Source: Lytechinus pictus (lineage: Eukaryota). From it: DNA of 64,000 bases. The stretch spans positions 10,542,001 to 10,606,000 of the forward strand of contig NC_087250.1 in assembly GCF_037042905.1 (NCBI RefSeq), read 5' to 3'. Within the stretch, counting starts at the first letter, position 1, and each line of letters opens with the position of its first letter. The notes beneath the pieces are model-generated. The model worked only from the letters and a program-made list of their open reading frames with translations. It was not told where the DNA came from and did no database searches. The position numbers and the translations under genes were made by a program. Shown here in pieces: positions 6,295 to 49,480 of the stretch.

Positions 6295-6870
6295 AGGACA
6301 AGTCCACCTCAACAAAAAGTTGATTTGCATAAAAAGAGAAAAATCCAACAAACATAACACTGAAAATCGGATGTAAAATAAGGAAGTTATGACATTTTAA
6401 AGTTTCGCTTAATTTCACAAAACAGTTATATGCACATCCTGTTTGGTATGCAAATGAGGAGACTATGACGTCATCCACTCACTATTTCTTTTGTTTTTTA
6501 TTATATAAAATATGAAATATTCTAATTTTCTCCCCATTGAAAGTGATACAATGATTAATTCCTCCCTGAACATGTGGAATTAGCATTGTTTAATACTATA
6601 TGGTTCAGTCAAGTTGGTCCTTATTGTCAAATCTATAAAAAATGACATATTCTGTAATTCAAACAATAAAAAACAAAAGAAATAGTGAGTGATGGACATC
6701 GACTGACTCACCTAGTTGTGCATGTCACTGTTTTGTGAAAAATAAGCGAAACTTAAAAATGTCATAACTTTCTTATTTTACATCCGATTTTGATGAAATT
6801 TTCAGCACTATGCTAGTTTGATTTTTCTCTAATTATTCAAGTCAGCTTTTACCTGGGGTGGACTTGACCT
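6295..6870. mobile_element. TTAA-flanked MITE with long TIRs (Kolobok-like)
   Basis: ttaa-aggacaagtccacc … ggtggacttgacct-ttaa; inverted copy at 43544-44148. Confidence 0.8.
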
Positions 6871-7311
6871 TTAAAAAGTGTAATATACTACCTTCTCTTA
6901 AAAAAAGAGCACTGAAAATAATCGCTAATTGTATCATGAATTTTGTTTTCCTGTTAATAACAGAAGTATGTTGTTATATGACATGTAAAGAGACAAGTGT
7001 TAGAAGCATTTTTGTAGAAACTGTATCTTTTTTATATAATTAATTTATGAATACTACTTGAATGTGTATACTTGTATTGTATGTATTGTGTGTTAAATCA
7101 TATATTTGTTTGTACCTTGACATTAATCTGTATTCATTGCATGTTTGTGTATTAAGAATAGATAATGTGAATTGAGTGAATGTTATATTTGATGAATGTG
7201 CTTTATATGTATCTGATTGAATACATGATTTTATCCTGCGAGTAAGAACAGTTCACAAGTTTTATTAAATCTCTCCCTTTGGGTTTTATCCATTTATCAG
7301 CTTTGTATTAC

Positions 7312-12715: not shown

Positions 12716-29744
<17,029 letters not shown>

Positions 29745-30378
29745 GGTAACAGGTCTGGTGAATCCTTGGAAGATGGGAGAATGTGGTAAATGATAAATAC
29801 ACCTACAGAAATGAAATAAAAAAATGACAATGATAAGTGACTTTCTATAGAGTACCGAAGTGATGACATCACAAAAAACTTTTTTAAAGCATTTTAGCGT
29901 GTTTGATACCATATTTTGGTAGAGCATGATGAACCCCCCCCACTACCAAAATTTGGTGGGAATCGGTCCATGGGGGCCATAGATATGATCTCATGAATTC
30001 ATAATTGGCTCCAGTGGAAGTCAGTGTATTATTGGCCTGGTTCTAAATTTAAGAACCAGGCCAATAATACATTGACTTCAATGGGACTAATTATGTATGC
30101 AAGAGGTCATATCTTGGGGCCCCATGGACCGATTCCCACCAAATTTGGGTTGTGGGAGTTTTTCATCATGCTCAACCAAAATATGGTTAAAAAAATGCTG
30201 TTGATGATGTCACACTTCAGTACTCTAAAGGCTCGTATTCTAAAGTCGGTTTAAACCTAGACCATGGTCTAACCCTGCGCAAAAAAAGTCAAATATTGTT
30301 TACATTGTACTGGTAAATATTTTTCTTTAAATTTACTGTGCTCTTTCCTAATGCTTTAATTGCGAAGACAACTATCTT

Positions 30379-30652
30379 GTAGCGGTGTTGTGGCTCAGTG
30401 GATAAGTCTCTGGACTGTGAACCACAAGGTCCGGGGTTCAAATCCCACCACAGCACTAGCGTCCTTTGGCAAGGCGTTTATCTACATTTGCCACTCTCCA
30501 CCCAGGTTTAGTTAATGGTTACCCGGTAGGAAAGTATTTCTTGAATGCTCGATGCGCGGGATCAGGGTATCCGTACTAAAGCCGGGGTAATAGTATCCAG
30601 CGCTTAGAAACATTTGTATCAAGCGCTCTATAAATGTTGCATATTATTATTA
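30379..30652 (+). mobile_element. tRNA-derived SINE nested in a palindromic MITE
   Basis: tggctcagtgg A box, ggttcaaatcc B box, ctctccacccagg core, agcgct…(tat)n tail. Confidence 0.82.
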
Positions 30653-32987
30653 TTTTTATCCCTCCCCAGAAAGTTAAGATTGATTTGAGTGTCAAATGAG
30701 CTAGTAAATTGAACCTCGACAGTTTAAGATGTATATCACAATTGGCTTTCCATAGTTAAACCACAACTTTACACCAGGATTTAAATTAAACCCAACTTCA
30801 GAATATGGGCCCTAGGGGGTCTAATTACAGGGTTCCCAGCTTTTCAAGAAAACAAAACTCCCTGATTTTTCCCTGATGAAGTTTAAAAGTTTACATACAC
30901 CCCATGGAACATGCAGTGAAATGTGTTCGCTCGCCAAATATCGTAGAATTTACTATATCTTCAGAAATATAAATACGAATAGGGTTGACCCTAACCCATG
31001 ACAAATTTTGTATTAAATGAAAGAGCGTATTAAGCTCTTTCACATGACTGGGATGCCGTTTGGATTAAAGAATATTTCAGGTAGAAGAAAAAAGTAGCAT
31101 TTGTGCCAAATGTATTCTATTGTTATTTATTATATTTTCAAACATCGTTTCATATAAATATATAAATGTCAAATCTATGATTTATATTCCATTTTCTATC
31201 ATGATATGTCACCACTGAACAAAAAAGTGTAATCTGAAATGTTTGTGTTGAGAAGTACATGTAACTAGCACAAATATGAAATTCCTGTAAATTTCAAAAT
31301 GAAATTTAACTTTCAAAATCATCATACAGAATAAAGAAAGAGAGAGAGAGCGAGAGAAAGAAATCATTTGATGATAATAAATCCTAGGTTTGTTGACCTC
31401 AAACAACCTCTGACGCTTGTTAAATAAACTTGTTCAAAATTTCAACTTGCCTTTGAGTGGTCCAACCGCTCTTGATCGTTGAGAGATATCTGATAGAGTT
31501 CCTGATCGGGTGCCACATACATGTAGACTCTTGTCAGCAGTCTAAGATAACAAAACATTCATAAAGAGAAGGAAATCATTAATTAGGACGAACATACATA
31601 CAAAAATACTTTTGGGGGTGTTTCACAAAGATGTAAGTGCGACCTAAAATCAGGCTTAGCGCCGATGCGAACATGATAGAGTTTAGTTTTAGGAGCAGTG
31701 AACGGCGTAGCAGTCCTCTGTTCGTTCGAGTCAACATCGTCGTCTGCCCTTGTTCACTACGGATGCGAATATTTTAGATTTTACTCGACTTGTACGTGTA
31801 CGTACGTGCACGTGAAAAGCATAACCTGGGGTACCATCGCCTGGCGACCCGTTCAGTTGATGCAAAGGTGCAACTTGTGCACACTAGCCCTTTCACTTGC
31901 TTTGATTCCTTTTTACGTGAGTTAGGATATATCGATATATATTTTGGAGATCAGAAAGCAATTTCAAATATGATAAACATAATTCATCGTACAACTAACA
32001 TTCATTTTGTGAAAAGTCACTGAAAACTGTATTTCAGAAGGGAAAGGTTGATCTTCATGCTGAGCTTGAGCGGTTAAAATTACATCACTCACGTACACGT
32101 CGACTATGATTTAGGAGAACCGCACAAAGGCGAGGTTCTCGATTCTGATAGTCGACATGTGTGAGGACCTGAGGCATATGGCAGCCCAAAAAATGATGTC
32201 ATCTCGTACCAGTCGTCTATGTCGATGTACGTTTTTAAAAGTGCTCATTAAATACGCAGAAGGGACATTCTTGGTCACATGTATGGCAAATCTTGAGCAG
32301 CTATAAATCTAAACATTTTAGAGATTCATAAAGTCTACTTGATTTTGAAAGTTTAAATTTTCATTTTTACATTAAAAGGAAAGAAAAAATGAAATTAAGC
32401 TTTCAAAATCACGCTTCTGTGTGAAATCACACACATGACCCACTTCTTTTGACCTCTGACCTTGAACCTGCATATTGGAGACAGCAAATGACTGAATGAT
32501 TTTGCTGGTACACATGTTTTCTAGAGACTACAGCCCGCATACACCAAATGCAGGCTCAATCTTCAACGGGTAAAACACTAATAATGCACATCAAATAAAA
32601 TTAGAAATAAAAGAGATGAATGAAAATTATCCATCTATAGGCAATGAACTTTGAGTTTGTATAATATAGACTTTAATACTCTCCAATTTACCAAGTAATC
32701 CCATGACTCTTTGGTATTAATAATGAACCACGGCCACTTCCTCTTATTGTCATTAAGTATTTGCTTTTACATCATACCAAGGCCAACTAGCAATGCCTAT
32801 TTTACTTCATACATCATTTACAAATGTACCTTCACCCTACAAAATGGAATCTTATCATGGGCCATGGGATACGTTGCTGAGAAAAGTTGCCGCACAAAAT
32901 TTACACAAATTATCAAAAGCACTGTCGAACAATCAATCATATTTATCACCCAACAGCTGCTGAATACCGGTAATTAAAAAACATACA

Positions 32988-33302
32988 GGCCCGTATTCTG
33001 AAGTCGGGTTTAATTTAAACTCAGGTTTAAAGTTGTGGTTTAAGTATGGGAAGCCAAAAGTATCAAAATTTTTATTAAGTTGTATGTTTCTTATGTTTAA
33101 GTACTGTGCTCTTTCCTGATTCACCGATGGTGAAGACAATAATCTTTTCATATTTCCTAGACAATCATGACTGATTTGAGAGCCAAATGAGCTTAAGTAT
33201 GATATCTCTACTGTTAGTGATTTATGTAACAATTGGCTGTCCATACTTAAACTACAACTTTAAACCTGAGTTTAAGTTAAACCCGACTTCAGAATACGGG
33301 CC
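32988..33302. mobile_element. Palindromic MITE (ggcccgtattctgaagtcgggttt family)
   Basis: About 60-bp near-perfect TIRs; relatives at 22797-23075, 24791-25117, 26881-27302, 30230-30812 and 60290-60345. Confidence 0.8.
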
Positions 33303-33436
33303 TATGTGTGCACAACCATTTAAACTGGTTGTTAATGTTATTATAATGACAAGTACAGTAGATCTACATGTACTTGAATTTCTTTCTTGACTATAGCTCT
33401 CTGGTGATCAACTCCATACTCCATACATCAACTCCA

Positions 33437-33790
33437 GGAGGCAGCGTAGCTCAGTCGGTTAGAGCGCACGTTTCGGATAAGATCGTAGATCTCAACATGA
33501 GGGGTTCGAGTCCCGCTCATGCCGAAACGCGTCTAACAAAAATCTGATGCTATAGCGTTGTGTGTAAGTGTGCCTCACCACTGTATTCAGTGCAGTTGTG
33601 AATGCAGTTGGAAAACACTCCATCCATCGGAAAGGATGTAAATGTTGGTCCCGTGTATAGGAGAGTCACAACCTATGCACGTTAAAAACAATACACTATT
33701 CGTCAAAGAGTACGGTGTTCACCCGGTGTATTGCACCTGCCGGTCCCGGCAAAATTCAGGTCAAGTCAATCTTGATGTTCATATGCCATA
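33437..33790 (+). mobile_element. tRNA-headed SINE with a Deu/Nin-like central domain
   Basis: A box tagctcagtcgg, B box ggttcgagtcc; body …tcggaaaggatgtaaa…ggtcc…gttaaaaa…cactattcgtcaaagagta…cccggtgt…ggcaaaattc resembles the DeuSINE (AmnSINE1/SINE3-type) core as recalled. Confidence 0.68.
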
Positions 33791-33969
33791 ATAATCAATG
33801 TAATGATTGTGGGCATTAACGGAAAGACAAGACAAGATATGTATCCAGCTAGAAATTAATCACAATAACATGAGGATACATGTACTTTGACAGTGCTTTT
33901 TCCCAACATCAAGTAAAAACCTGCACAGAGCACGAGGGTGAATTCACCCAGACAATCAGGGCCCCTGGA

Positions 33970-34226
33970 CAGTGGCGTACCTAGGATTTTCCACAGGGGG
34001 GGGGGGGGGGGCAAAACCGTCCGCCAAAAAGGTCTTCAATCACAAATAAAGGATTTCGTACCAGAAAAAAAATTTACAAGCAAAAAAAAAAAAAAGAAGC
34101 TCGTCAGGGGGGGGGGCAAAAAAGGTTTTCAAGCTCGTCATGGGGGGGGGGGGCAGGGAATCCTTTGCATGGGTTGTGACTCGTCAGGGGGGGGGTAGAC
34201 TGCCCCCCCCCCTAGGTACGCTAGTG
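33970..34226. mobile_element. hAT-like MITE
   Basis: cagtggcgtacctagg / cctaggtacgctagtg TIRs; perfect 8-bp TSD cccctgga. Confidence 0.82.
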
Positions 34227-34597
34227 CCCCTGGAGATCCATAGCATGCAAATAACAGGGCGAGCTTATCAAGCCTGCACGGTACTATACTGTAGATCACG
34301 TACGTACAGTGTCAATGCAAACTTCTTGAATACGCATTGATCACAAAATTACATGTACAACATTGTTGTGATTTTCTTATCAAACATTCAAAGTACAAAG
34401 TTGACTGTTGATAATGGTAAGATCATCGGAGTAGCTCATCAAGGACTAGGCTTGTACACCCTCTTCAATTGATTAGTTATTGATTAATTAGCATCTATCA
34501 GGCAAAGAACTGAAATGATATGCACTACATTTTGATACAGCTCTGTAATTGTACATGCTGTATCTTCATACACATGTAGGGCTATGTTTTCAGACAA

Positions 34598-34870
34598 CAA
34601 TAATAATAATGGCTGGATTTAAGCGCTTTTTGCCTGAGGATACAAACCGCTGCTAAGTGCTATCATTACTTTGGCTTTAGCTTTGCAGTCATATAGGCGC
34701 TGAAGCATAGTTTTTCCAACCAGGTACTCATTTCATACCTACATATAAATGGGTTGCATGCAGCACAATGTGGGTAAATTTCCTGCAGAAGGAAAACGCA
34801 ACATGGCTGGGAATCGAACCTAGGTCCCTCAGATTGAAAGGGTGTCAAAACCACTAGACCATGATGCCCC
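34598..34870 (-). mobile_element. Degenerate tRNA-derived SINE
   Basis: Similar to 26268-26531. Confidence 0.7.
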
Positions 34871-35501
34871 CAACACAATGTACACGCAGTAAACAAGGAT
34901 CTACATGTAATGAGAAAGTCTAAAATCTGAGTTAATTGTAGATTCAGAGAGTGACACAGGGGTAAGAGAGACCTACATGTAGACAATTATTAGGTGATCT
35001 GTCTGTTGACAGATCACCTCTTGTGTTTCTATGAATTTTCTTTTTTATTTATTTATTCTTTTTATTTATTTTTCTTTTTCCACCCTCTTCTTGTTCCACC
35101 AAAATCAGAAAAACTGTTCTATCAATTTTCATCAAATTATTATCAATTATGCACAGTTATCATGCGATGTGTACGAAACAAGTTCAACGTCAAATGGTCA
35201 TCGTGACGTCATCTACGCGCCATTTTGTAAAATCACATTATCAACAATATCTTCATCATCAATCATCAAAAATGAACAATATTAACATGAAATTAACTTC
35301 AGATCATGGGTCAACTGTCCATGTGATCAAACGTCATTAACACGTCACAACACGCATGTACGCGCGCGTCAAAATTTTAGAATGCTCAAAATCACTTTTT
35401 GATCAAAGTAGAGTACGAATCAGGTCATTTAAAGCATTTCAAGAATTTGCGCGCTCACGCGTTTTCGCGGTAACGTCGTTACGCAATGTAGAATCGCCGT
35501 T

Positions 35502-35758
35502 TGTGACGAGATAATAATACACGTTTAAGTCTGGAGTACAGACTAGAAAAAGAATATCGCTATGTGAACAACGGACTTGTGAATCTGAATCGTCATGTGT
35601 ACATTTTGTAAATAAACTGTTTTTAAACGATTTGACACGGCGTGGCTTGTTTGCTAATTCAGGAGTGTCTGAATGGAGAACAAGATTCAGGAGGTTTACG
35701 TTGGAGTTTGTCCAGTACAGGTAACAATAAGAGCTTGTCAGGACCAGCAAACGTAACA
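35502..35758 (+). repeat. 5' LTR
   Basis: TGTGACG…CGTAACA; AATAAA at 35611-35616; 3 substitutions versus the 3' LTR. Confidence 0.97.
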
Positions 35759-35759
35759 G

Positions 35760-35777
35760 TGGGGGCTTGTCCGTGAA
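35760..35777 (+). promoter_or_regulatory. Primer-binding site, tRNA-Pro type
   Basis: tgggggcttgtccgtgaa, 1 nt after the 5' LTR; resembles TGGGGGCTCGTCCGGGAT, the complement of the tRNA-Pro 3' end. Confidence 0.8.
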
Positions 35778-36460
35778 TCAATCCTCCGCCTAACAGTGGG
35801 GGCTTGGTGAGAGTCGACCCAGAACTCTCGGCGTAAGTTATATCTAAGTACCGTATACCGTATAATGCTAGCGCCGGCGCGACAAAGTCGCATGAACGTA
35901 TTCGAAGAGTGTGCAATCGTATTCACCGTGAAGATTGTCATTAGACATTTGCATGGGTGTGTGTACACGTAGATGTAATGCCAGTGTGTGTGGATATCGC
36001 TGTCAGTTGTTGTGTATGACGCTGTGTGGTGGCGCACAAGGTTGAGTATGGCGTGCCGTTTGTCCCATAGGCAATTCCATGTATTTCAGTGTGTCTCGCT
36101 ATGCGATGTGTTTTTGTCACGTAGTGTTGAATGGAATTTGGGTTGATGATATTTCAACTGGTTAACCATTTTTTAAAGGGTTGCTGTGTCGGTTAATGGA
36201 AACTGACAGTGTCGACTGGAGTCAAGTTGACAGTGTGGTTGGAAAAATTTTCAACTGGGGTGACCGAGTCAGGTTACCGTTTCTGTAGGTTGAGGTCATA
36301 TCTACAGGGTCAGCCAGGTCAGGTTGACATTTTCTTCTGTGGTTGATATCATTTTCAACTGTGATAACCGTATTGGTTATTGTCTTGGCTAAGAATTAAA
36401 GGTTTTCTTTAGCTGTTTCTAGTCTTTTCAGCGTTAAAGATTAGGGGTCTTTTGTTGACC

Positions 36461-39400
36461 ATGGCGGAATTTTCTTTGGATGATTTCGTTGATTCTCCCA
36501 GTGTTGAGAAGTTGCTGGTTCTGAAGAAGGTTCATCTCTTGGAGATTGCTCATCATTACCAGGTTGCTGAGGTAAGGAATACTTGGCGTAAATTAGAAAT
36601 TCTGAAAGCTGTAATTCAGTGGTTAGTGGAAGAGGAAGATGTTCTGCCACTTGAAGCTTTATCTAAGGTTCCGATTGAGTCTGTGAATGTGGACTTGACA
36701 GAGAAATTGCGTTTGAAAGAGTTGGAACTAGAGATAGCGAAAGTTGAACTTGAACGAGAACAAGTAGTTTTGAGAAGGGAGCATGAGAATGCTAGAGAAA
36801 GAGAAGAAATTAGGCAAGTAAAGTCTGATTTTGATGTTGCGAAACATGTTCGAATGGTTCCCGTTTTTCAGGAGGGGGAGGAGATAGAGAAATATTTCCT
36901 TCACTTTGAAAAGGTAGCTGTTAGTTTGAGTTGGCCGCAAGAAAAATGGTCACACTTGTTACAATCTCAGTTGAAGGGTAAAGCTCGAGATGCTTATTCA
37001 GCTTTGTCAGTTGATGATGCGGGTCGTTATGACATTGTAAAAGCAGCAGTGTTGCGTGCTTATGAGCTTGTACCGGAGGCGTACCGTCAACAATTTCGGA
37101 AAACACGCAAAGATGAGACCGAAACTCATCTTGAGTTTGCTAGGCGCAAACAACAGTTGTTTGATAGATGGAGTTCGTCACTCCATGCAGATAGCTTTGA
37201 TAAGCTTAGAGAAATAATTCTTCTCGAAGAGTTTAAGCGTAGTGTGCATTTCGATGTTAGGTTGCATCTTGAAGAGCAGCAAATAGGAAGGCTTAATGAA
37301 GCAGCGAAGCTTGCAGATGATTATGCGCTAACGCACAAAATCACAAACAAAAAATCAGATGAGACAAACAAATCTGGAAAGTGGAAAAACAAAAACAAAA
37401 ATGGTGCTTCAGCACACAACAAGAAAGAAGTAAAACCACAATCTAAAGATGACGAGCAAGAAAAGAAATGCTATGCATGTCACAAGGTTGGTCATTTTAA
37501 AGCAAAGTGTCCTACACTTAAAGGAAAAACAAGTGAATCAAGTAATGCACATCCAAATGCATTTGTGAATAATTTGCTAAGTTCAGAGATTAGGATTGAG
37601 CCAGTTAACTTAGAGAAATTGAAAAAGCAATATGAACCGTTTGTTTCTGTAGGATATGTTTCCCTAGCTGGTAGTGTCGAAGCAAGAAAAGTGAAAGTGT
37701 TGCGTGATACTGGTGCTTCTCAGTCTTTGATCTTGGAGAGTGTGTTGCCTTTTGGTGGGAAATCTTGTGTTGGAACTAGTGTTTTGCTCCAAGGAATAGG
37801 AGATGGCTTTGTAAAAGCACCCCTTCATGTGGTAGACTTGAAATCAGACCTTGTTTCTGGTAGTGTGAAAATGGCTGTGAGACCATCACTTCCGGTGGCA
37901 GATGTTTCCATCATTTTAGGGAATGATCTTGCTGGTGATAAAGTTGTACCATGTCCAGTTGTGAGTGCTATTCCGTGTGAGAGTAGTAAAACAGAGCAGT
38001 TGGTTGCAGAATTTCCTACTGTGTTTCCGTCTTGTGCTGTAACTCGTTCGATGGCAAAGAAAGTAGAGACTGAATCGAAGTCTAGTGAGCTAGATGATGT
38101 TAACTTGGGAGATTCTTTCTTTTGTCGTTTGGTTGATGATGAATGTGAATCAAATGTGAATGAGGGTGCAGGAGAAACTCAAAGTACAGAAGAGAAAAAT
38201 AAATGTGAACCAATGCCGATAAGTAAGAGTAAGTTGTTGGAGGAGCAACAAAAAGATCCTCAGTTAGTATCCATGTTTGAGAGAGCGATCTCTGAGGAGG
38301 AGGCATTGACCGTGCCTGTTTGTTATTATACGAAGTCAGGTGTTTTGATGAGAAAGTGGAGGCCGATAGATGTTCCTGCTGATGAAGTTTGGAAAGAGGT
38401 CCACCAGATTGTAGTTCCTTCTACTTATAGGCCAGAAATACTTAGTCTTGCTCATGATGCACCACTTGCAGGTCACTTGGGAGTCTATAAGACTCGGGAG
38501 AAAATCCTTTCTCATTTCTTTTGGCCGGGTTTACAAAAGGATGTTGCAAACTATTGCAGAAATTGTCATGTATGTCAGGTAGTAGGTAAACCGAATCAGA
38601 AAATACCAGTCGCGCCATTAAAACCAGTGCCAGCGTTCGATGAACAGTTTGCAAGAATTATCATAGATTGCGTAGGTCCGCTTCCGAGGACAAAAGCGGG
38701 TAATGAATTCCTGTTTACCATTATGTGCGCAAGTACCAGGTATGTCGAAGCGATTCCACTTAGACGTATCACCGCAAACAATGTGAGCAAGGCGCTGATC
38801 AAGTTTTTCACGACTGTAGGATTACCGCGTACCGTTCAGTCTGATCAAGGATCAAACTTTATGTCGAAAGTCTTTAAGCAAGTGCTAGGGCAGTTAGGGA
38901 TTGAACATGTAGTTTCTAGTGCATACCATCCTGAATCGCAAGGAGCACTTGAGAGATGTCATCAGACACTCAAGAACATGCTCAAAACATATTGTTTGGA
39001 GACAGAGAAACAATGGGATGAGGGAATTCCACTGTTGCTATTTGCTTTGAGAGAATCTGTTCAAGAATCTCTTGGTTTCAGCCCATTTCAGCTCGTGTAT
39101 GGACATGAAGTCCGTGGACCCCTCAGGTTGTTGAGTGAAAGGTTGTTGTCAGATGAGGAAGATGTAAATATGTTGGACTACGTATCGTCTTTCCGTGAGA
39201 GATTGCATCGTGCTTGTGAAGTTGCTAGGAAGAATTTGTCTGATTCTCAGGAGAAAATGAAGTCTTGGTATGACAAGAAGTCCAAGGAAAGGAATTTCAA
39301 GGCAGGTGATGAGGTTTTGGTTTTGTTACCAGTAGTTGGTAATGCTTTGCAGGCTAGATTTACTGGACCGTATACCATTCTGAAGAAAGTTGGTGATGTT

Positions 39401-41008
39401 GACTATGTCGTCAAAACTCCAGATAGAAGAAAAACAAAGCGTGTATGTCATGTGAATATGATAAAAGCCTATGTTCGAAGAGATGATGAAAAGAAAGCAC
39501 AACCGGTGTTGAGTGCTGTAGAATCTGAGCTGAATGATGAAAGTGAAGAGATGTATAACATTGAGAGAAATGAACCATGTGTGAAATTGAAAAATTCAGA
39601 AGTTCTAACACACATCAATGACAAACTAACCCACTTGTCTGAGAAGGAGAGGAGGGATGTGAAAGACCTGTTGAATGAGTATCCGCAGTTATTTGCAGAT
39701 ATCCCATCTCGTACTGATGTTGTTGAACATGATGTTGATGTGGGAGATACCGCCCCAATCAAGCAGGCACCTTATCGTGTTAACCCAGTAAAGATGAAGA
39801 ATCTTGAAAAAGAAATAGAGTACATGCTGCAGAATGGCATCATCGAGCCAAGTAGCAGCGCATGGTCGTCGCCATGCATCTTAGTTCCGAAACCGGATAA
39901 GTCGTATCGTTTCTGTACCGACTACAGAAAAGTCAATTCGAGTACAAAGACCGATTCTTTCCCGATACCGCGCGTAGATGACTGTATTGACCGCATAGGC
40001 AAGGCGAAGTATGTGAGCAAATTTGATCTGCTTAAAGGCTATTGGCAGATTCCGTTGACTAAGAGAGCGCAAGAAATATCTGCATTTGCTACACCCCAAG
40101 GCCTATTCCATTACACTGTGATGCCATTCGGTATGAAAAACGCGCCGGCTACATTCCAAAGACTTGTGAATCGTCTTGTCTCTGGTCTTGAAGGCTGTGA
40201 AGCTTACATAGATGACTTGATTGTGTATAGTGAAGATTGGAAAGTTCATGTACAAAGAATCAGAGATTTGTTCAGGAGATTGTCTGATGCCAAATTGACA
40301 GTCAACTTGGCAAAGAGTGAGTTTGGAGGTGCTACTGTTAGTTTCTTGGGTCACGTTGTTGGTTCAGGTCATGTTCGACCACTCTCAGCGAAGGTAGAAG
40401 CTATTCTGGCGTTCCCAACTCCAACCAACCGGAAGAAACTGATGAGGTTTCTTGGCATGGCAGGCTACTACAGACGATTCTGCCATAACTTCTCTGATGT
40501 CGTCGCCCCGCTGACCAATCTACTACGCAAGGAGGTGAAGTTCATCTGGTCCAGTGACTGTCAGAGTGCTTTTGACAAAGTGAAAGCACTCCTATCTACC
40601 AATCCTGTACTGGTAGCTCCAGATTTTAGTCAGCCATTCTCTCTGATGGTTGACGCTAGTGATGTGGGTGCCGGAGCTGTTCTTACGCAGAAAAATGAAC
40701 AGGGGACAGACAGGCCCATATCGTTCTTCTCAAGGAAGTTTTCGAGCAGTCAGAGAAATTATTCCACTGTGGAGAAGGAAACTTTGGCGTTAATCTTTGC
40801 ACTGCAACACTTTGAAGTGTATGTGAGTGGATCTCAACATGCATTGGACATATGGACAGATCATAATCCTTTGACGTTTCTAAGTAAGATGAAAAACAAA
40901 AATCAAAGACTTACAAGGTGGAGTCTACTGCTCCAAGAGTACAACTTGAACATTAGACATCTACCGGGAAAAGACAACATTATTGCAGACACATTGTCGC
41001 GAGTGTAA
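36461..41008 (+). CDS. Gag-Pol polyprotein: SCAN-like capsid region, CCHC zinc knuckle, aspartic protease, integrase, reverse transcriptase, RNase H
   Basis: Uninterrupted ORF, first ATG accATGg at 36461. Motifs: CYACHKVGHFKAKC (37469-37510), LRDTGAS (~37700), integrase HHCC + IIIDCVGP / SDQG / PESQGALE and GPY (~38450-39375), YIDD (40205-40216), VDASDVGAGAVL…TDHNPL…ADTLSR (40650-41005). Confidence 0.97.
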   Translation: MAEFSLDDFVDSPSVEKLLVLKKVHLLEIAHHYQVAEVRNTWRKLEILKAVIQWLVEEEDVLPLEALSKVPIESVNVDLTEKLRLKELELEIAKVELEREQVVLRREHENAREREEIRQVKSDFDVAKHVRMVPVFQEGEEIEKYFLHFEKVAVSLSWPQEKWSHLLQSQLKGKARDAYSALSVDDAGRYDIVKAAVLRAYELVPEAYRQQFRKTRKDETETHLEFARRKQQLFDRWSSSLHADSFDKLREIILLEEFKRSVHFDVRLHLEEQQIGRLNEAAKLADDYALTHKITNKKSDETNKSGKWKNKNKNGASAHNKKEVKPQSKDDEQEKKCYACHKVGHFKAKCPTLKGKTSESSNAHPNAFVNNLLSSEIRIEPVNLEKLKKQYEPFVSVGYVSLAGSVEARKVKVLRDTGASQSLILESVLPFGGKSCVGTSVLLQGIGDGFVKAPLHVVDLKSDLVSGSVKMAVRPSLPVADVSIILGNDLAGDKVVPCPVVSAIPCESSKTEQLVAEFPTVFPSCAVTRSMAKKVETESKSSELDDVNLGDSFFCRLVDDECESNVNEGAGETQSTEEKNKCEPMPISKSKLLEEQQKDPQLVSMFERAISEEEALTVPVCYYTKSGVLMRKWRPIDVPADEVWKEVHQIVVPSTYRPEILSLAHDAPLAGHLGVYKTREKILSHFFWPGLQKDVANYCRNCHVCQVVGKPNQKIPVAPLKPVPAFDEQFARIIIDCVGPLPRTKAGNEFLFTIMCASTRYVEAIPLRRITANNVSKALIKFFTTVGLPRTVQSDQGSNFMSKVFKQVLGQLGIEHVVSSAYHPESQGALERCHQTLKNMLKTYCLETEKQWDEGIPLLLFALRESVQESLGFSPFQLVYGHEVRGPLRLLSERLLSDEEDVNMLDYVSSFRERLHRACEVARKNLSDSQEKMKSWYDKKSKERNFKAGDEVLVLLPVVGNALQARFTGPYTILKKVGDVDYVVKTPDRRKTKRVCHVNMIKAYVRRDDEKKAQPVLSAVESELNDESEEMYNIERNEPCVKLKNSEVLTHINDKLTHLSEKERRDVKDLLNEYPQLFADIPSRTDVVEHDVDVGDTAPIKQAPYRVNPVKMKNLEKEIEYMLQNGIIEPSSSAWSSPCILVPKPDKSYRFCTDYRKVNSSTKTDSFPIPRVDDCIDRIGKAKYVSKFDLLKGYWQIPLTKRAQEISAFATPQGLFHYTVMPFGMKNAPATFQRLVNRLVSGLEGCEAYIDDLIVYSEDWKVHVQRIRDLFRRLSDAKLTVNLAKSEFGGATVSFLGHVVGSGHVRPLSAKVEAILAFPTPTNRKKLMRFLGMAGYYRRFCHNFSDVVAPLTNLLRKEVKFIWSSDCQSAFDKVKALLSTNPVLVAPDFSQPFSLMVDASDVGAGAVLTQKNEQGTDRPISFFSRKFSSSQRNYSTVEKETLALIFALQHFEVYVSGSQHALDIWTDHNPLTFLSKMKNKNQRLTRWSLLLQEYNLNIRHLPGKDNIIADTLSRV

Positions 41009-42070
41009 ACTGAATCCTTAACTTTGAACAATTTGATAACTTCGAATTCGTGTGAACTTTGAAGTCTGGACAATGGAAGTTTAACGTCGTGTGTATCAAT
41101 GCGAAATTCGGACAACGAAAGTTTGATATCATCAATGTGATAAACAGTGAACGTTTGACATCGTGTTATGTCATCGTGACGTTTGAGCAGTGAACATTTG
41201 ACAGCGTGTTAATTCATCGTGACATTTGAACTGTGAACGTTTGATATTGTGTATAATCAAGGTGAAATTTGGAAACTGCACTTTCTGTGAACTGTGGAAC
41301 TTGAAACTTATTTCATCATGTGAATTTATACCTAAATGCTTACTTGTCATCTCAATTTAATGGATACTCCGGAATGGACTCTTTACCATGTTTGATTTGA
41401 AAGTGAACTGAACTTGTGTTTTTTTCTGGATTTCGGCATGCCAACTGTGCTCATGTTTACACTATATCTTGGATCAAGTAATCTGAACCTACTGTGAATC
41501 TTCATGAACATTCAATGAACCCTAACACTGAAGCAATGATGTTGAACTTCGTTGAACTGAAACTATAGTTGGAAGAAGATATTGGAAATCAGAAGTTTGA
41601 ACTTACATCTTGAATGATTTCTCGTATTATTGACTTTTTGACTCAGTGAAGCAATGCTTTTTATATTGCATTTCTCATAACACTTGGAAGTAATACCATG
41701 TATTTTTATGTTGATTATTCATATGAAATTTCTTATGACTATGTTTATTACGAACATACATGTATTTCAGAACATGCGTGTACCTTTTGATGAAGAAGTT
41801 TTACTACATGCATGCGCTATCAATACATGTCTGTTTTACTCATTTCATATATACTATGTTTTATATTATGCTTATCTTTGCCAAAGTATACAAAATTGCT
41901 GCACAAAGAGCGTGAAATTGAAATAAGGCATTTCGATATGTTTTAATGCATTAACTGTGTTTGGTTAAGGGCTATATTCATTGTGATAATGTTCGTTTAT
42001 ATTAACAAGCAAAATTTGAGTTGCGAACATACTTATTGCAATTTCTTTGAAAAATTATAAGCATGTTTTT

Positions 42071-42081
42071 AAGGAAGGGAG
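42071..42081 (+). promoter_or_regulatory. Polypurine tract
   Basis: aaggaagggag immediately 5' of the 3' LTR. Confidence 0.85.
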
Positions 42082-42338
42082 TGTGACGAGATAATAATAC
42101 ACGTTTAAGTCTGGAGTACAGACTAGAAAAAGGATATCGCTATGTGAACAACGGACTTGTGAATCTGAATCGTCATGTGTACATTTTGTAAATAAACTGT
42201 TTTTAAACGATTTGACACGGCGTGGCTTGTTTGCTAATTCAGGAGTGTCTGAATGGAGAACAAGATTCAGGAGGTTTACGTTGGAGTTTGTCCAGGACAG
42301 GTAACAATAAGAGCTTGTCAGGACCAGCAAATGTAACA
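42082..42338 (+). repeat. 3' LTR
   Basis: TGTGACG…TGTAACA, preceded by the purine tract aaggaagggag. Confidence 0.97.
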
Positions 42339-43543
42339 CCGTTTCTTTTACGTCAATGCATTTATAATGAAATTCTGATTAATTTGATACCTTGATCAAC
42401 CTTCTACGACCAGTAGTAAAGGAATTAGCTTCTATCAAATTTTGAATAACGCGCGCACGCGCGCGTTCACAATTTAGGCCAAATATGTGGAAAAACATGC
42501 CTTTACAAAATTTAATATAACTCTTCGGATAGTCCGTTGACCCTCAAATATTCTTTTAAATTCCGATAGAGTATGAATTGTAGATGTGATTTCATGTCAC
42601 ATTTGACCCTAAATTTTATCATGACGTCATCAAAATGGCGTCGGAACTAAAATTTTCCATTTTTGTTTTATGACGTTTTAATAATTTTGCAAATATGACT
42701 ATAACTCCGTAAATATTGGTCAATTTTCGCCCAGTTTTTTTATATGTTGTAGCTGAATACATACTCTTTCTAATGTAATGGCTATATTAACATTTAAAGG
42801 AACGGATCATCCTGAAAAATGGCAAGTTATAAAGGCATGTCATTTTCGCTCATTTTGTGTGCAATCTCTATGGGAAATGACTTTTTCTCAAAACTGGATT
42901 TTACATTCCTCTATTTCGCGAGCCATATCTCCATTTCTAATCGTCGGTTTTCTCTTAGCTTGAAGTATAATTTAGCTGAGATTGTAAGCTATCGCAATCT
43001 GGTCTTATTTTTCTGATAAGAAGCCGGGATCATGCCCGTATTTTTCTTGAAAAATTGGATTTGAGATCCTCTCAATTTGCTTATGTGTAAAGTCTATGGG
43101 AAATAGTGCTTATGTGTATTAGTCTATGGGAAATAGTGTAGCTCAGTTGATAAGGCACCAGACTTGCGTCCTTAGGGTCGAGGGTTCGAGCCCAGGGGTG
43201 AATATGAGAATTTTTCTTTTCTTTTTTGTTTATTTTCAACATTTCACAAATGGTCCTTTATGACCATTACAATGTATATATTGCACAATAAAATAGTTTT
43301 AAAACCGTTTTATTATAACTTGTACATATACCATGTGTAACACTTATTTCACAAAACTTTTCATTTCCCTCTTTTCAAGGGTATTCAACATGTTCTCTTC
43401 GTAATAAAAGTTCAGTTTTGAATATGATCATCGTATTTATCTCAATAAACATGGTGATTGTATTCGTGATCATGAAAATCAGAGACAGATCACCTAATTC
43501 GTCCTCATGACGAATTAAAGTTCTAGTTTGTTTTGTGTTTTAA

Positions 43544-44148
43544 AGGTCAAGTCCACCCCAACAAAATGTTGATTTGAATACACGTATAGAGAAAAATCAA
43601 ACTAGCATAACACTGAAAAAACTTCATCAAAATCGGATGTAAAATAAGAAAGTTATGGCATTTTAAAGTTTCGCTTATTTTTCACAAAAAAAGTGATATG
43701 TACATCTCAGTGACATGCAAATGAGACAGTCGATGATGTCCATCACTCACTATTTCTTTTGTTTTTTATTGTTTGAATTATACAATATTTCATTTTTTAC
43801 AGATTTGACAATAAGGACCAACTTGACTGAACCATATAGTATTTATAAAACAATGCTAATTCCACATGTTCAGGGAGGAATTACTCTTTGTTTCACTTGA
43901 CAATGAGGAGAAAATTAGAATATTTCATGTAATGAAATACAAAAGAAATAGTAAGTGGATGACGTCATCAGTCTCCTCATTTGCATACCAACCCGGATGT
44001 ATATAACTGTTTTGTGAAATTATGCAAAACTTTAAAATGTCATAACTTTCTTATTTTACATCCGATTTTGATGAAATTTTCAGTGTTATGCTTGTCGGAT
44101 TTTTCTCTATTTATTCAAATCAACTTATGGTTGGGGTGGACTTGTCCT
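43544..44148. mobile_element. TTAA-flanked MITE with long TIRs (Kolobok-like)
   Basis: ttaa-aggtcaagtccacccc … ggggtggacttgtcct-ttaa. Confidence 0.8.
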
Positions 44149-44179
44149 TTAAGTACGTTTCATTCTCCGCTGGCGATAT

Positions 44180-45075
44180 TAATGATGATAATGTGGTGGC
44201 GGTGGTGGTGGTAATGATGATGTACATGTACATAGGCTGCGGAAACGGGCAATCGTTTCCCGGCCCCTGATGCAGTGAGGGTGGTAGTGATGTTTGTGGT
44301 TACCATTGTTATTGTCATGGAGATGGTAATGAGGATGATGATGACGATGATAAAGATGATGGTGGAGATGATGATATAATAATGATGCTGATAATGTGAT
44401 AATGATGATGACGATATTCATGTTGTAATGATGTGATGATGAAGATGACCAAATGATGATGATGATGATGATGACGATGATAATAATGATTCTGATGGTG
44501 ATGATTGAATGATCATGATGATGTTGATGATGATAAAATGATGAGGATGAAGGTAATGATGTTGATTATGATGGTAATGATGTTGATGATGATGATAGTG
44601 ATGGTAATGATGAGGATGATGATGACGATGATAATAATGATTCTGATGGTGATGATAAAATGATCATGATGATGTTGATGATGATAAAATGATGAGGATG
44701 AAGGTAATGATGTTGATGATGATGATAGTGATGTTGATGATGATGATAGTGATGGTAATGAGGATGATGATGATGATGATGGTAATGATGATGGTAATAA
44801 TGATGGTGATGATGACGGTAATGATGTTGATGATGTTGATGAGGATGAAGGTAATGATGATTGTGGTGATGATGATGGTAATGATGATGTTGATGAAGAT
44901 GACTGATGATGATAATGATAAAATGATGGTGACAATAACATGATGATGAGGATGAAGGTGATGATAATGGTGATGACGATGGTGTTGTTGATGACGATAA
45001 TGATGATGATTGATGATGATGTAGATGGAAGCTCGAGGCGAAAGGTGAAATCATTGCGGTCGTGATGATGATAAT
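44180..45075. repeat. (GAT)n degenerate microsatellite
   Basis: Directly visible. Confidence 0.95.
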
Positions 45076-45714
45076 AACAGATCTGAGTTAATGTGATAAT
45101 TATCAATCAAATGATAATTATCAATCAAATAATAATTATCAATGATATGATGTACATGTATATGGCAAGTTTTTTGGAAGAGATTATTTTACAATACAAT
45201 GATCCAGCCAACAAATTATAATAATAATATAATAATAATATAATAATAAATAAATAATAATAATAAAAGACAATCAAGAGACATACATCAAAGTTAATAC
45301 TAGCCTTACGCCATGTAAAATTTCATGAGAAAATCATGATCATTAGAAAGTCAAAATAATTGAAAGAATTCAGCCCTATTTATGATTTCACTGTTAAAAT
45401 AGGGAGGGATATTTAACAACATCCCCCCCACCACCATTGCCAACAGCGCATACAGATACTGACATGATGATTCAAAGATACAGTACCTAGAGGCTGATAC
45501 GCAATAGCGGTTAAAAGCTACAGAAATCCTTCCATCTGATTGGCTGATCAATGGTAAATGTCTTAAAAGAAATTGTCTTTATGAAACGGGACCCAGGAGA
45601 AGATCAACTTCCTGAGTATTCTTGTAGCCAAACATGAATAGCACGTGCTGAAATCTTGCAAGTTAATTTTAGATTAAAGGATCCTTCACATCCACTCCAT
45701 GATGAACATTAAAA

Positions 45715-46000
45715 AATAATAATAATAATAATAATTAGACTTATTTCGCGCCAAATCCACTCTGTAGAGTGCTCAAGGCGCTTTTTAGGAAATTATAAAA
45801 GAAATTAAGAAGAATTGAAGAGAAATGTTTTGAGGTAATGTTTGAAAGTTTCAGAGGTCAAGCACTGTTTGATGTTTTCAGGGAGGCTATTCCATAACTT
45901 AGAGGATGAGTAAACAAATGATCTTTCACCCCAGGTTTTGGAAACTTTGGGGGTAACAAGAGAATTGGAAAAGGAGGAACGTAAGGATCTTGAAGGGGTA
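45715..46000 (-). mobile_element. 5'-truncated L2-like LINE 3' end with (TAT)n tail
   Basis: - strand reads PSRSLRSS…WGERSF…KLWNSLPENIKQCLTSETFKHYLKT, followed by gcgccttgagcac…tail. Confidence 0.75.
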
Positions 46001-46117
46001 TTTGATCAGTGAAATGAGGTAAAAAAACTTCAAACCCATCAAAGGCAGCAGAAAGTATTAAAGCAATTAGGGTCGCGAATCATACATAAATAGTTTCCCA
46101 GACAATGATATCACAAT

Positions 46118-47022
46118 AGGGCCGTCTGCACCATCCCGAGTTTTAAAATTAGCACGCTATTTCTGATCTGGCAAATTATCCCGATCTGCACAATCTCGAG
46201 ATTATTTGTAATGGAGACACAATTATCGCGATAGTTCGTAGGATTAATCTTGAGATTGCAATCCCAAGTCAACTTGGGATTATTTGCAAATATTTTACAA
46301 ATTATGGCGCTAAATTGCAGGTGCAGACCCACTCGGAATTATTTCTTCACGGCGATGGTGGAGACAGGGTTTCTTGAATCTAGAGATTAATCGCGAAGAG
46401 GGCCGATCGGGCTAAAGTCTCGAGATTGAGCCAACTCGGGATGGTGCAGCACCGCCTAAGGCCAACAATTTACAACTAGGGCTAGGACTACAAGCAAGCA
46501 AGCACACAAACACACACACAAAAATATTAAATCAAAGAGGCGACAAATTTCATGAGGCTCTTGTCAATCAAACTTATTTGTGGTTTCAAGATTAGCTCCA
46601 GCTGGAACATCACTCATCTAAAGGCGGTGCTGCACCATCCCAAGTTTGCTCAATCTCGAGATTTTAGCCCGATCGGCCCTCTTCGCGATTAATCTTGAGA
46701 TTCAAGAAACCCCGTCTCCACCATCACAAGAAGAGCGATTCCTGCTCGAGCGAGGCATCGATGCATTATGGTCTGACGCCGTGAATAAATAATCCCGAGT
46801 GCGTCTGCACCTACGAATTAGCGCGATAATTCGTAAAATAGCGCGCTATTTTGCAAATAATCCCAAGTTGACTTGGGATTGCAATCTCGAGATTAATACT
46901 ACGAACTAGCGCGATAATTGCATCTCCATTGCAAATAATCTCGAGATTGTTCAGATCGGGATAATTTGTCGGATCAGAAATAGCGCGCTAATTTGAAAAC
47001 TCGGGATGGTGCAGACGGCCCT
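46118..47022. mobile_element. Two inverted copies of one MITE (46118-46457 and 46622-47022)
   Basis: Each has TIRs tgcaccatcccgag / ctcgggatggtgca; the internal sequences are reverse complements of each other. Confidence 0.8.
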
Positions 47023-47254
47023 TTGGAGGAAACAGATTCTTGAGGTCAGATAGAAGACCCAGTTCCAGGCCTAATGTAATTACGTAACCCAGGCATTATG
47101 ATCTAGGCTAATAATAATAATTAATAAAATTAACATTATTTGTATAGCGCTTATCACAAAACATGTCTCTAAGCGCTTTAGAAAGAGAGAAGAAATATCA
47201 GCAAAAAACTAAAGTAATTGTACATGTATAGTTCATAGTAGACTGTATTAAAGT

Positions 47255-48657
47255 AAGCTTGTAACCGATTTTGCAATCGGCAACCGATTCCATTCGATTT
47301 CACCACAATCGGCAATCACTTGCCGATCTTCGATCATGCCCCTTGAAGGAAAAAATCGAAAATAAAAAATCGGCGTAGATCTGGTTACAGTGCGTGATCG
47401 CTCAGAACATATTTCAAGATTGTTTTTGAGGTGCTAGCTATTTAGAGGTCGCATTATTCAGGGAGAAAGTCGCGGTATTATCTATGGCAATGTTTAAGGG
47501 GATAGATATCTTCTCTTCCAACTCATGGTGATAGCGGATGCCGCCGTGAACTTTGAAAGGTCGTATTACCGACGGAGCTCACTGCGTTACTCTCTTACAT
47601 CGTTTATGATTATATACATTTTATTTTCAACCTCGTGGTGATAGCGGATGCCGTCGTGAACTTTGAAAGGTCGTATTACCGACGGAGCTCACTGCGCTAC
47701 TCTCTTACCCCCTTTATAATGATATAAATCTTCTCTTCAACCTCGTGGTGATAGCGGACCCCGCCATTAACTTTTAAAGACTGTACTATTGACGGAGCTT
47801 ATTGCGTTACTCTCTTACATCGTTTATGATGATATACATTTTATTTTCAACCTCGTGGTGATAGCGGATGCCGCCGTGAACTTTGAAAGGTCGTACTATT
47901 GACGGAGCTCATTGCGTTACTCTCTTACATCGTTTATGATGATTTACATTTTATTTTCAACCTCGTGGTGATAGCGGACCCCGCCGTGAACTTTTAAAGA
48001 TCGTGCTACTGACGGAGCTCACTGCGCTACTCTCTTACCCCCTTTATGATGATAGACATCTTCTCTTCAACCTCGTGGTGATAGCGGACCCCGCCGTGAA
48101 CTTCAAATTGATTTGAAAACGCTAGCTACCCAAAACATTTTAATAACATATTTCAAATCATCGTGTGTGCTTGCGTCGTCTACTTCATTTTAATTGCACT
48201 TGCGACTTTAAGATGATGCGTCGTAAGAGATCATTCCAATAATTCTAAATCGCTAGCACCTAAAAATACTTCTAAAAGATGTCCCGCCGATCGTTCATTA
48301 ACCTGTGATCTATGAGAAATATTTTCATTTTATTTTCCTTTGCGCCTTTGCTCGGAAGATGCGTCTTTCGTTTATCTTTCTAATGAAAATCACTCGGTTT
48401 ATTTTAAAGCAATAACACCTCAAAATCCCTGGCTTTAAAACATGTTCCAAACGATCGCGCATGTTGGCGACTTCCATTCCAATGCATTCGTCTTTGTGAC
48501 TTTGTCAGGAAGATGCGCGCGACCGCGAACAACATTTTGATGTATTCCTTTGTTTTTAAACATCGCCGATTCGATTTTCGATTCGATTTCGATTTTAGAA
48601 GCTTAACTGCCGATCCGATTTTCGATCTGATTTTTGATCCGATTTACAACATTATTA
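47255..48657. mobile_element. Putative non-autonomous DNA transposon carrying the 110-bp array
   Basis: ttgtaa / ttacaa near the ends; clustered ccgatt / aatcgg motifs at both ends; internal inverted matches (47391-47410 vs 48442-48461); 8-bp flanking repeat attaaagt. Confidence 0.55.
47521..48103. repeat. 110-bp tandem repeat array (5.3 units)
   Basis: Units start at 47521, 47631, 47741, 47851, 47961 and 48071 (cctcgtggtgatagcgga…). Confidence 0.95.
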
Positions 48658-48664
48658 ATTAAAG

Positions 48665-49480
48665 TGTAACAGTTGAGTGGCTTCACATGCAAAGGGAAAG
48701 GGTATTTTTAACAAAAAAGTAGGGTTTTAACATGGATTTGAAAGTCTCTGTTGGATCTGCTTGTTTGATACTTTGTGGTAGATTGTTCCAGAGATGAGGG
48801 GATGCGGAATAAAAAGATCGTGAACCATAAGATTGGGTATTGGTGGCAGGAACTGATTTGTTTCTTGAGCACAAGTTGCGGGAGGGTGAATATTCTGATA
48901 TCAACTCTTGAAGATAGACTGGAGCTGATTTCTTCAAACATTGGAATGTCAGCAAGAGGATCATAAAATCAATTCGTTTCGGGATCTTTAGCGTGTGAAG
49001 CTCTCTCAGCAGTGGAGTGACAGACTCATGTGAACGATGATTAGCAATCACTCTAGCGGCTGAATTTTGTACTCTCTGCAGTTTGTTAATTCGTGCATCA
49101 GTCATATAAAAGACTGTTGCAAAAGTCAATGCGAGACATGACTAGTGCCTGAACGAGTCTTTGGGTGGTCTTTTTTGAGAGAAATGGACGGATGCTACCA
49201 ATTTTATGCAACGCAAATTATGAGGCAGATATGCATACATTGTTCACAAGAGTCTTCAGAAACAGATTATTATCAAATGTGACCCCTTAGTTTCTGGCAC
49301 ATGGAGAACATTCTACATCAGTACCATCTGAAACAAATATCACCAATTGGACTACAAGTAGTACAAGTCCGATGCCTGCTAACAAAGTGTAAACATTCCG
49401 TTTTAGTTTAATTTAACTTCAATCCATGCTGTATAGACCAATTTTAAATGTCTGTAAAACAGACGTTAACATTAATAAGA
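48665..49480 (-). pseudogene. Degenerate L2/CR1-type LINE ORF2 3' fragment
   Basis: KLQRVQNSAARVI…VTPLLRELH…RIDF…APVYLQELI…PSRNL…LWNNLP…FKSMLK, with frameshifts upstream. Confidence 0.85.

What the first reader, a model, noticed from the sequence alone, without database searches (positions are those of the whole stretch)
35502..42338. Intact, young Gmr1-like gypsy element with copia-like pol order (PR-INT-RT-RH)
Seen: one 1515-codon ORF in which the integrase (HHCC, D-D-E, GPY at ~38450-39375) precedes RT (YIDD) and RNase H. The RT/RH and GPY motifs are gypsy-type. The LTRs differ at only 3 of 257 positions, and the TSD, PBS and PPT are intact. Established: this inverted order defines the Gmr1-like deuterostome gypsy group. 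Inference: a recently inserted, possibly still mobile family, lying antisense to the ALDH3 gene, upstream of it or in its probable first intron.
Basis: partly seen in the sequence, partly recalled or inferred. Interest (0 to 1): 0.7.

Follow-up and report, generated by a model that had tools for sequence, protein, structure and literature searches.

The report
Young Gmr1-type jumping gene, sea urchin
This is a complete, fairly young copy of a known kind of jumping gene with its enzymes in swapped order, lying just upstream of an aldehyde dehydrogenase gene in a sea urchin; it is ordinary.

Summary
35502-42338 is a complete LTR retrotransposon: 257-bp LTRs with 3 differences, a CCGTT target duplication, PBS, PPT, and one 1515-aa ORF ordered SCAN-capsid, CCHC, PR, INT, RT, RH. 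INT and RT/RH each match Ty3 best and no copia family was hit. The copia-like order is therefore a rearrangement within gypsy: the Gmr1-like clade, long described.

Three corrections:
(1) The group is not deuterostome-only. Papers report it in crustaceans and annelids, and same-order relatives here include molluscs and a sponge.
(2) The host is most likely Lytechinus pictus. The element lies 3,984 bp upstream of the ALDH3A2-like start codon, outside the coding region; a first-intron position is untested.
(3) It is young, not brand-new. LTR divergence is 1.2%, and about 17-20 amino-acid changes on its own branch match neutral ageing. Other full-length copies are 97-98% identical.

The element sits inside a high-copy repeat, so the empty-site joints seen in reads do not prove polymorphism. 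Current mobility is not shown. No named Gmr1 or copia reference was available for the tree. New member of a known kind; low interest.

The parts
35497..35501 (.). 5' target-site duplication CCGTT
   Evidence: joints that skip exactly the element plus one TSD (6842 bp) in runs X1 and X23
35502..35758 (+). 5' LTR, 257 bp, TG...CA, AATAAA at LTR position 110
35760..35777 (+). primer-binding site, 1 nt after the LTR; most likely tRNA-Pro (assignment recalled)
   Evidence: 15 of 18 letters match an MLV leader sequence seen in primers of PMC3651342; related element L001 has the MLV-type version after a similar LTR end
35791..35806 (+). 16-bp duplicate of the LTR end plus the start of the PBS
   Evidence: identical to 35754-35769; one motif hit only in L001
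36461..41008 (+). single gag-pol ORF, 1515 aa (P0001)
37073..37336 (+). SCAN-like capsid C-terminal domain of Gag
   Evidence: PF02023, E 1.1e-12
37469..37510 (+). CCHC zinc knuckle
   Evidence: motif; PF00098 E 0.018, below the curated cut-off
37676..37930 (+). aspartic protease, DTG at aa 416
   Evidence: motif; RVP E 0.0044, below the curated cut-off
38414..39475 (+). gypsy-type integrase: HHCC, D736-D795-x35-E831, GPY/SH3 C-terminal module
   Evidence: best solved match Ty3-G residues 1089-1450, E 5.9e-35
39884..40357 (+). reverse transcriptase core (D1189, YIDD 1249-1252)
   Evidence: RVT_1 E 2.3e-32 and no RVT_2 hit; Ty3 best; D1189 checked
40622..41005 (+). RNase H, ending the ORF
   Evidence: PF17917 E 1.1e-36
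41009..42070 (+). 3' non-coding region with a 43-bp x3 tandem repeat at 41143-41271; no env-sized ORF (longest ATG ORF 72 aa)
42071..42081 (+). polypurine tract abutting the 3' LTR
42082..42338 (+). 3' LTR
42339..42343 (.). 3' target-site duplication CCGTT
12719..31518 (-). neighbouring ALDH3A2-like gene, coding exons (context only; start codon 3,984 bp from the 5' LTR)
   Evidence: L. pictus P0165 (546 aa) maps along its whole length at near-complete identity
35168..35496 (.). left part of the high-copy interspersed repeat that hosts the insertion (limits approximate, from depth bins)
   Evidence: summed contig depth about 1.2e5 in X11 versus about 700 inside the ORF
42344..43055 (.). right part of the host repeat (limits approximate)
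   Evidence: depth 2.5e4-1.3e5 in X11

Best explanation
A full-length, autonomous-type Ty3/gypsy (Metaviridae) LTR retrotransposon of the Gmr1-like clade, from a young multi-copy family in Lytechinus pictus. Inferred cycle, from established LTR-retrotransposon biology: the 5' LTR drives one transcript. It is translated as one Gag-Pol polyprotein, which its own protease cuts into capsid (SCAN-like C-terminal domain), nucleocapsid, integrase and RT/RNase H. Minus-strand DNA is primed by a host tRNA (probably tRNA-Pro) at the PBS and plus-strand DNA at the PPT. The integrase makes a 5-bp staggered cut, giving the CCGTT duplication. Because the domains are released by proteolysis, their order can change without loss of function; the integrase-first order is an old rearrangement of a gypsy pol, not a copia graft. 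This copy inserted into an older interspersed repeat about 4 kb upstream of ALDH3A2-like, roughly 0.6 million years ago (range about 0.1-1.7 on the same borrowed rate), and has been drifting since. SHOWN: anatomy, domain order, gypsy affinity of INT and RT/RH, multi-copy family, existence of the uninterrupted target sequence. INFERRED: primer identity, processing, age, neutral decay. NOT SHOWN: present mobility, polymorphism, any effect on ALDH3.
For: Anatomy. RT/RH matches Ty3-G residues 568-1008 (whole-protein E 9.7e-122) and INT matches Ty3-G 1089-1450 (E 5.9e-35), so the two gypsy blocks are swapped relative to Ty3. No RVT_2 hit at E up to 10. 120 of the 120 best relatives have INT before RT, and 96 of 120 show the full SCAN-PR-INT-RT-RH order. 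In an RT/RH tree all 34 INT-first sequences plus one of unknown order form a clade (FastTree support 0.94) apart from 13 INT-last gypsy-type loci. INT and RT/RH trees both put the query in the same 6-member group with L. pictus and S. purpuratus relatives (support 0.995 and 1.0). A 15-member 90% cluster is all L. pictus, 12 gene ids, 4 proteins of exactly 1515 aa at 97.3-98.2% identity. The branch to this copy is 17-20 aa against 19.5 expected from LTR divergence under neutrality. Published definitions fit.
Against: No named Gmr1 or copia reference was in the tree; the outgroups are unnamed metagenome loci. The age rests on 3 substitutions (95% interval 0.24-3.4% per site) and a rate prior from strongylocentrotids (0.01 per site per million years, PMC3637829). 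Two database versions of one L. pictus gene id differ by 33 aa (P0122 and P0131), so allelic or assembly differences can mimic copy divergence. The PBS departs at 3 of 18 positions from the MLV-type sequence.
Confidence: 0.93

Rival explanations
1. The family is still transposing and this copy is a segregating insertion (present or absent between individuals).
For: Unbroken ORF with all checked catalytic residues. Joint 35496 to 42339, which skips the element plus one TSD, is seen in 2 contigs of X1 and 1 read of X23. RNA run X23 gives mean depth 1.6 in the orientation expected for sense transcripts versus 0.3 opposite, about 68 versus 12 read-equivalents in the 6% of the run that was read.
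Against: The flanks are a high-copy repeat, so the empty joint can come from paralogous repeat copies. A variant joint with other letters at the site occurs in X1 and X9, and the shorter side is only 22-27 letters. The LTRs are not identical. Full-length copies are all about equally distant (25-41 aa), with no near-identical pair among the 5 compared. RNA reads were laid from 90% likeness, so they may come from any copy.
Confidence: 0.35
2. The element lies inside a 5'-UTR intron of ALDH3A2-like and is spliced out, rather than lying upstream of the promoter.
For: A pyrimidine-rich stretch ending in AG lies about 25 nt upstream of the annotated ATG, which suggests an upstream non-coding exon.
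Against: That exon was not located and could lie in the 4 kb between gene and element. No splice joint crossing the element was among the 15 joints shown, with 231 hidden.
Confidence: 0.3
3. The element is a Ty1/copia member, or a recent copia-gypsy chimera that took its integrase from copia.
For: The order PR-INT-RT-RH is the copia order.
Against: RVT_1 and not RVT_2; gypsy-type H2C2 and GPY/SH3 integrase modules; both INT and RT/RH match Ty3 best; INT and RT/RH trees agree on the nearest relatives.
Confidence: 0.01
4. A domesticated host gene (SCAN- or integrase-derived) rather than a transposon copy.
For: Gmr1-like elements gave rise to host SCAN domains and to GIN1, GIN2, KRBA2 and SCAND3.
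Against: Paired near-identical LTRs, a TSD, multiple copies on different contigs and a neutral-level amino-acid divergence.
Confidence: 0.01

Closest known systems
Gmr1-like clade of Ty3/gypsy LTR retrotransposons (cod Gmr1, sea bream Saugg1, tetraodontiform Gmr1-4, shrimp GyRex4, annelid LGF3)
   Same: Integrase upstream of a gypsy RT/RH (PMC8220671, PMC3587641, PMC6238403 passages). SCAN-encoding gag followed by PR, IN, RT-RH (bioRxiv 2025.03.03.638093 passages). One fused gag-pol ORF of 1506-1634 aa without env (PMC11117352 table).
   Different: Only the host and the family. The LTRs (257 bp) are shorter than the 337-518 bp listed for pufferfish Gmr families. It has a short duplicated LTR-end/PBS stretch. 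No direct sequence comparison with Gmr1 itself was possible.
Saccharomyces Ty3-G Gag-Pol (PDB 7q5b, 4ol8)
   Same: Best solved match for both RT/RH and integrase.
   Different: Ty3 has the integrase after RNase H; gag and pol are joined by a frameshift (recalled); no SCAN-type capsid match.
Ty1/copia (Pseudoviridae)
   Same: Domain order PR-INT-RT-RH; single ORF.
   Different: The enzymes are not copia-type: no RVT_2 hit, and the integrase has a GPY module.
L. pictus LOC135156718, LOC135156194, LOC129278695; S. purpuratus LOC115921856
   Same: Same family in L. pictus (97-98% aa, same 1515-aa length) and a sister family in S. purpuratus (72% overall, 81% over aa 620-1515).
   Different: Annotated only as uncharacterized proteins; this copy's exact protein is not in the collection.

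Membership tests
Gmr1-like clade | Integrase upstream of RT/RNase H in pol | tested here: met
   Pfam positions INT 652-1005 before RT 1142-1299 and RH 1388-1494
Gmr1-like clade | RT/RNase H of Ty3/gypsy type | tested here: met
   RVT_1 and PF17917/PF17919, no RVT_2; Ty3 is the best solved match
Gmr1-like clade | Gypsy-type integrase with GPY/F module | tested here: met
   H2C2, p58_C and SH3_Tf2 hits; aligns to Ty3 integrase over 361 aa
Gmr1-like clade | SCAN-like capsid domain in Gag | tested here: met
   PF02023 E 1.1e-12; feature described in passages
Gmr1-like clade | Single fused gag-pol ORF, no env | tested here: met
   1515 aa without stop; longest 3' ATG ORF is 72 aa; compare PMC11117352
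Gmr1-like clade | Phylogenetic grouping with named Gmr1 references | tested here: inconclusive
   INT-first sequences are monophyletic (0.94) against INT-last loci, but no named Gmr1 or copia sequence was available
LTR retrotransposon (intact insertion) | TG...CA LTRs, TSD, PBS, PPT | tested here: met
LTR retrotransposon (active) | Current transposition: new insertions, identical-LTR copies | not testable with these tools
   No genome was held; the empty-site joints are ambiguous
Ty1/copia | Copia-type reverse transcriptase (RVT_2) | tested here: not met
   No hit at E up to 10
Ty1/copia | PR-INT-RT-RH order | tested here: met
   shared with the Gmr1-like clade, so not diagnostic

The most novel reading that the evidence does not exclude
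The family is still transposing in this model sea urchin, and this insertion segregates in the 5' leader or promoter region of ALDH3A2-like and changes its expression. That would make it a natural regulatory allele and an observable active Gmr1-like family. A separate, better-supported side result: the same SCAN-PR-INT-RT-RH order in the sponge Dysidea avara suggests that the rearrangement predates bilaterians or has moved between phyla.
Probability: 0.07. Interest if true: 0.45.

Novelty: new member of a known kind. Interest (0 to 1): 0.17.

Why it matters
It matters little alone: the swapped pol order is a documented exception among gypsy elements, and more than 5,000 database proteins are related. 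Its use is practical. It marks an unannotated young family in a developmental model urchin, whose other copies are mislabelled as uncharacterized host genes. It offers a datable insertion next to an aldehyde-detoxification gene. The relatives in a sponge and in molluscs show that the 'deuterostome' label is out of date.

Tried and rejected
Genome-wide copy count and LTR survey: no genome is held for this window; only one copy lies in the window.

Viral contigs: 0 of 15 pattern matches encoded a relative. Rfam over 29000-49000: no hit. The only tRNA-like gene in the window is undetermined (19686-19760), so the primer could not be tested locally.

Folding of the LTR-end/PBS region was unremarkable (z -0.57). 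The duplicated PBS was considered as a special feature and set aside, because L001 has one motif hit only.

The run search listed no holder on record as RNA. The empty-site joints were rejected as proof of polymorphism because the flanks are repeated. ALDH3 5' splicing was not resolved.

Horizontal transfer to this urchin was considered and is not supported: its nearest relatives are other echinoids in both trees, and a coded second organism (run X11) holds a family about 95% identical.

Paper searches for Gmr1 in sponges or cnidarians showed no relevant listing. Only 15 of 2,826 and 15 of 125 listings were seen, and the library lacks the original Gmr1 papers, so absence from print is not claimed. 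'Lytechinus + LTR retrotransposon + gypsy' gave 6 papers, none by title on this family. Earlier scan notes: nothing by sequence or place; two by the word Gmr1.
Full report
OBSERVATION. Two 257-bp direct repeats lie at 35502-35758 and 42082-42338, begin TG, end CA and differ at 3 positions. CCGTT flanks both ends; a 5-bp match by chance is about 0.001. A PBS-like tract starts 1 nt after the 5' LTR and an 11-purine tract abuts the 3' LTR. One ORF, 36461-41008, gives 1515 aa without a stop. The 1.07-kb 3' region holds no ATG ORF over 72 aa, so there is no env. No second copy lies in the window.

DOMAINS. Pfam gives SCAN 205-292, integrase 652-1005, RT 1142-1299 and RNase H 1388-1494. The zinc knuckle and the protease score below their cut-offs but show their motifs. 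The catalytic residues checked are present: PR D416; IN HHCC and D736, D795, E831; RT D1189, D1251, D1252; RH D1398, E1440, D1467, D1510. Against solved structures the C-terminal part matches Ty3-G residues 568-1008 and the integrase part matches Ty3-G 1089-1450. Both blocks are therefore gypsy-type and swapped relative to Ty3. RVT_2, the copia RT family (role recalled), was not hit at E up to 10.

RELATIVES. A search with residues 620-1515 gave 5,385 proteins at E of 1e-20 or better among 8,000 candidates scored. Of the best 120, all have INT before RT and 96 show SCAN-PR-INT-RT-RH. Named ones come from sea urchins, sea cucumbers, a brittle star, a crinoid, a hemichordate, two bivalves and the sponge Dysidea avara, whose protein has the same Pfam order. 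INT (121 rows) and RT/RH (120 rows) trees both place the query in one 6-member group with L. pictus and S. purpuratus proteins. A second RT/RH tree had 54 rows: 33 selected proteins (all named ones plus about every sixth unnamed) and the 21 of 43 metagenome loci with over 300 aligned residues. In it the 34 INT-first sequences plus one of unknown order form a clade (support 0.94) apart from 13 INT-last loci. No named Gmr1 or copia sequence was available, so membership rests on architecture plus this monophyly.

LITERATURE (passages only, found by term search; no paper was read whole and no supplements were opened). Gmr1 elements are gypsy elements with integrase upstream of RT (PMC8220671; PMC6238403; PMC2774666). 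They carry a SCAN-type capsid followed by PR, IN and RT-RH (bioRxiv 2025.03.03.638093; PMC4592553) and have a fused gag-pol of 1506-1634 aa (PMC11117352). Protostome members are reported in shrimps and crabs (PMC3587641) and an annelid; PMC8556966 lists Gmr1 among clades found in several phyla; flatworm families are filed as Gmr1/Osvaldo (PMC12801592). About 200 Gmr1-like copies are reported in a frog genome (PMC4131045), and PMC3670739 places Gmr1 within the Osvaldo clade. The original descriptions (Butler, Goodwin and Poulter; Goodwin and Poulter) are recalled, not read.

HOST AND POSITION. An ALDH exon of the window is 100% identical to L. pictus ALDH3A2-like P0165, and the whole 546-aa protein maps to minus-strand exons from 31518 to 12719. 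The host is therefore most likely L. pictus. The element is 3,984 bp upstream of the start codon, on the other strand, outside the coding region. An AG acceptor-like site just upstream of the ATG suggests a non-coding first exon, but its place is unknown. No splice joint across the element was among the 15 joints shown, with 231 hidden.

FAMILY AND AGE. The 90% cluster holds 15 proteins, all L. pictus, under 12 gene ids; 4 of the 15 are exactly 1515 aa. The five full-length proteins including this one differ pairwise by 25-41 aa, a star-like pattern that suggests one burst. LTR divergence is 1.2% (95% interval 0.24-3.4%). If the ORF has aged neutrally at half that value, 19.5 missense changes and 1.3 stops are expected, with a 0.28 chance of no stop; the observed branch is 17-20 aa. 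An open frame is thus compatible with unselected decay and does not show activity. [quoted passage not shown] Caution: two versions of one gene id differ by 33 aa, so haplotype or assembly differences contribute.

READS. Four of the 24 listed runs were laid on 29600-43500 at 90% likeness. Both flanks are a high-copy repeat: X11 depth is 1.2e5-1.3e5 there against about 700 in the ORF, and X1 and X9 show the same pattern more weakly. A joint that skips exactly the element plus one TSD occurs in 2 contigs of X1 and 1 read of X23; a variant joint with 4 other letters occurs in X1 and X9. The uninterrupted target therefore exists, which confirms a true insertion, but it may come from paralogous repeat copies, so polymorphism at this locus is open. 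RNA run X23 (6% read) gives low depth over the element, 1.6 versus 0.3 by orientation, consistent with weak sense transcription of the family, not necessarily of this copy. Run X11, another coded organism, holds a family about 95% identical.

MECHANISM. By established LTR-retrotransposon biology the element makes one transcript and one polyprotein that is cut by its protease. It primes reverse transcription with a host tRNA at the PBS, probably tRNA-Pro: 15 of 18 letters match an MLV leader sequence seen in primers of PMC3651342, relative L001 has the MLV-type version, and the tRNA assignment itself is recalled. The second strand is primed at the PPT, and integration makes a 5-bp staggered cut. 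Proteolytic release of the domains explains why their order can change. The anatomy and ancestry are shown; priming, processing, age and decay are inferred; mobility and any effect on ALDH3 are not shown.

VERDICT. A real, well-preserved, fairly young member of the known Gmr1-like clade. New member of a known kind; interest 0.17.

Noticed in passing
window 23326-23560 and 20451-20703 (minus strand): Degenerate tandem copies of the first 90-100 bp of two ALDH3 exons lie in the introns just upstream of the true exons; at least one keeps the acceptor context. They could be decoy or alternative exons.
   Followed up: partly
window 35754-35806: The last 5 nt of the LTR plus the start of the PBS (16 bp) are repeated 37 bp downstream, giving a second, shorter PBS-like site.
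   Followed up: partly
P0117 (Dysidea avara), P0088, P0107: Sponge and bivalve proteins with the same SCAN-PR-INT-RT-RH order, about 51% identical over the whole length; the sponge cluster has 16 members. No sponge Gmr1 report appeared in the listings seen.
   Followed up: partly
P0026, P0032, P0053: Gmr1-like polyproteins labelled as bacterial (Candidatus Thiodiazotropha, Campylobacter sp.) nest among animal elements; probably host DNA in bacterial assemblies.
   Followed up: no
P0123: A 501-aa family member lies on a contig of the same length as the one holding ALDH3A2-like P0165 but differs from this copy at 15 of 501 residues: another copy on that chromosome, or another allele.
   Followed up: no
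window 43538-44153 and 6290-6876: MITE-like palindromic element of about 615 bp, present twice at 85% identity.
   Followed up: no
window 32981-33313: Inverted-repeat element with further copies near 22787-23053, 27089-27310 and 30665-30811.
   Followed up: no
window 47522-48103: 110-bp tandem repeat, 5.3 copies, 87% matches.
   Followed up: no
window 48683-49141 (minus): 152-aa frame that resembles the C-terminus of a LINE reverse transcriptase (by eye, recalled); no Pfam hit.
   Followed up: partly
window 19686-19760 (minus): tRNA-like sequence with an undetermined anticodon inside an ALDH3 intron, probably part of a SINE; it shares sequence with 34750-34861.
   Followed up: no
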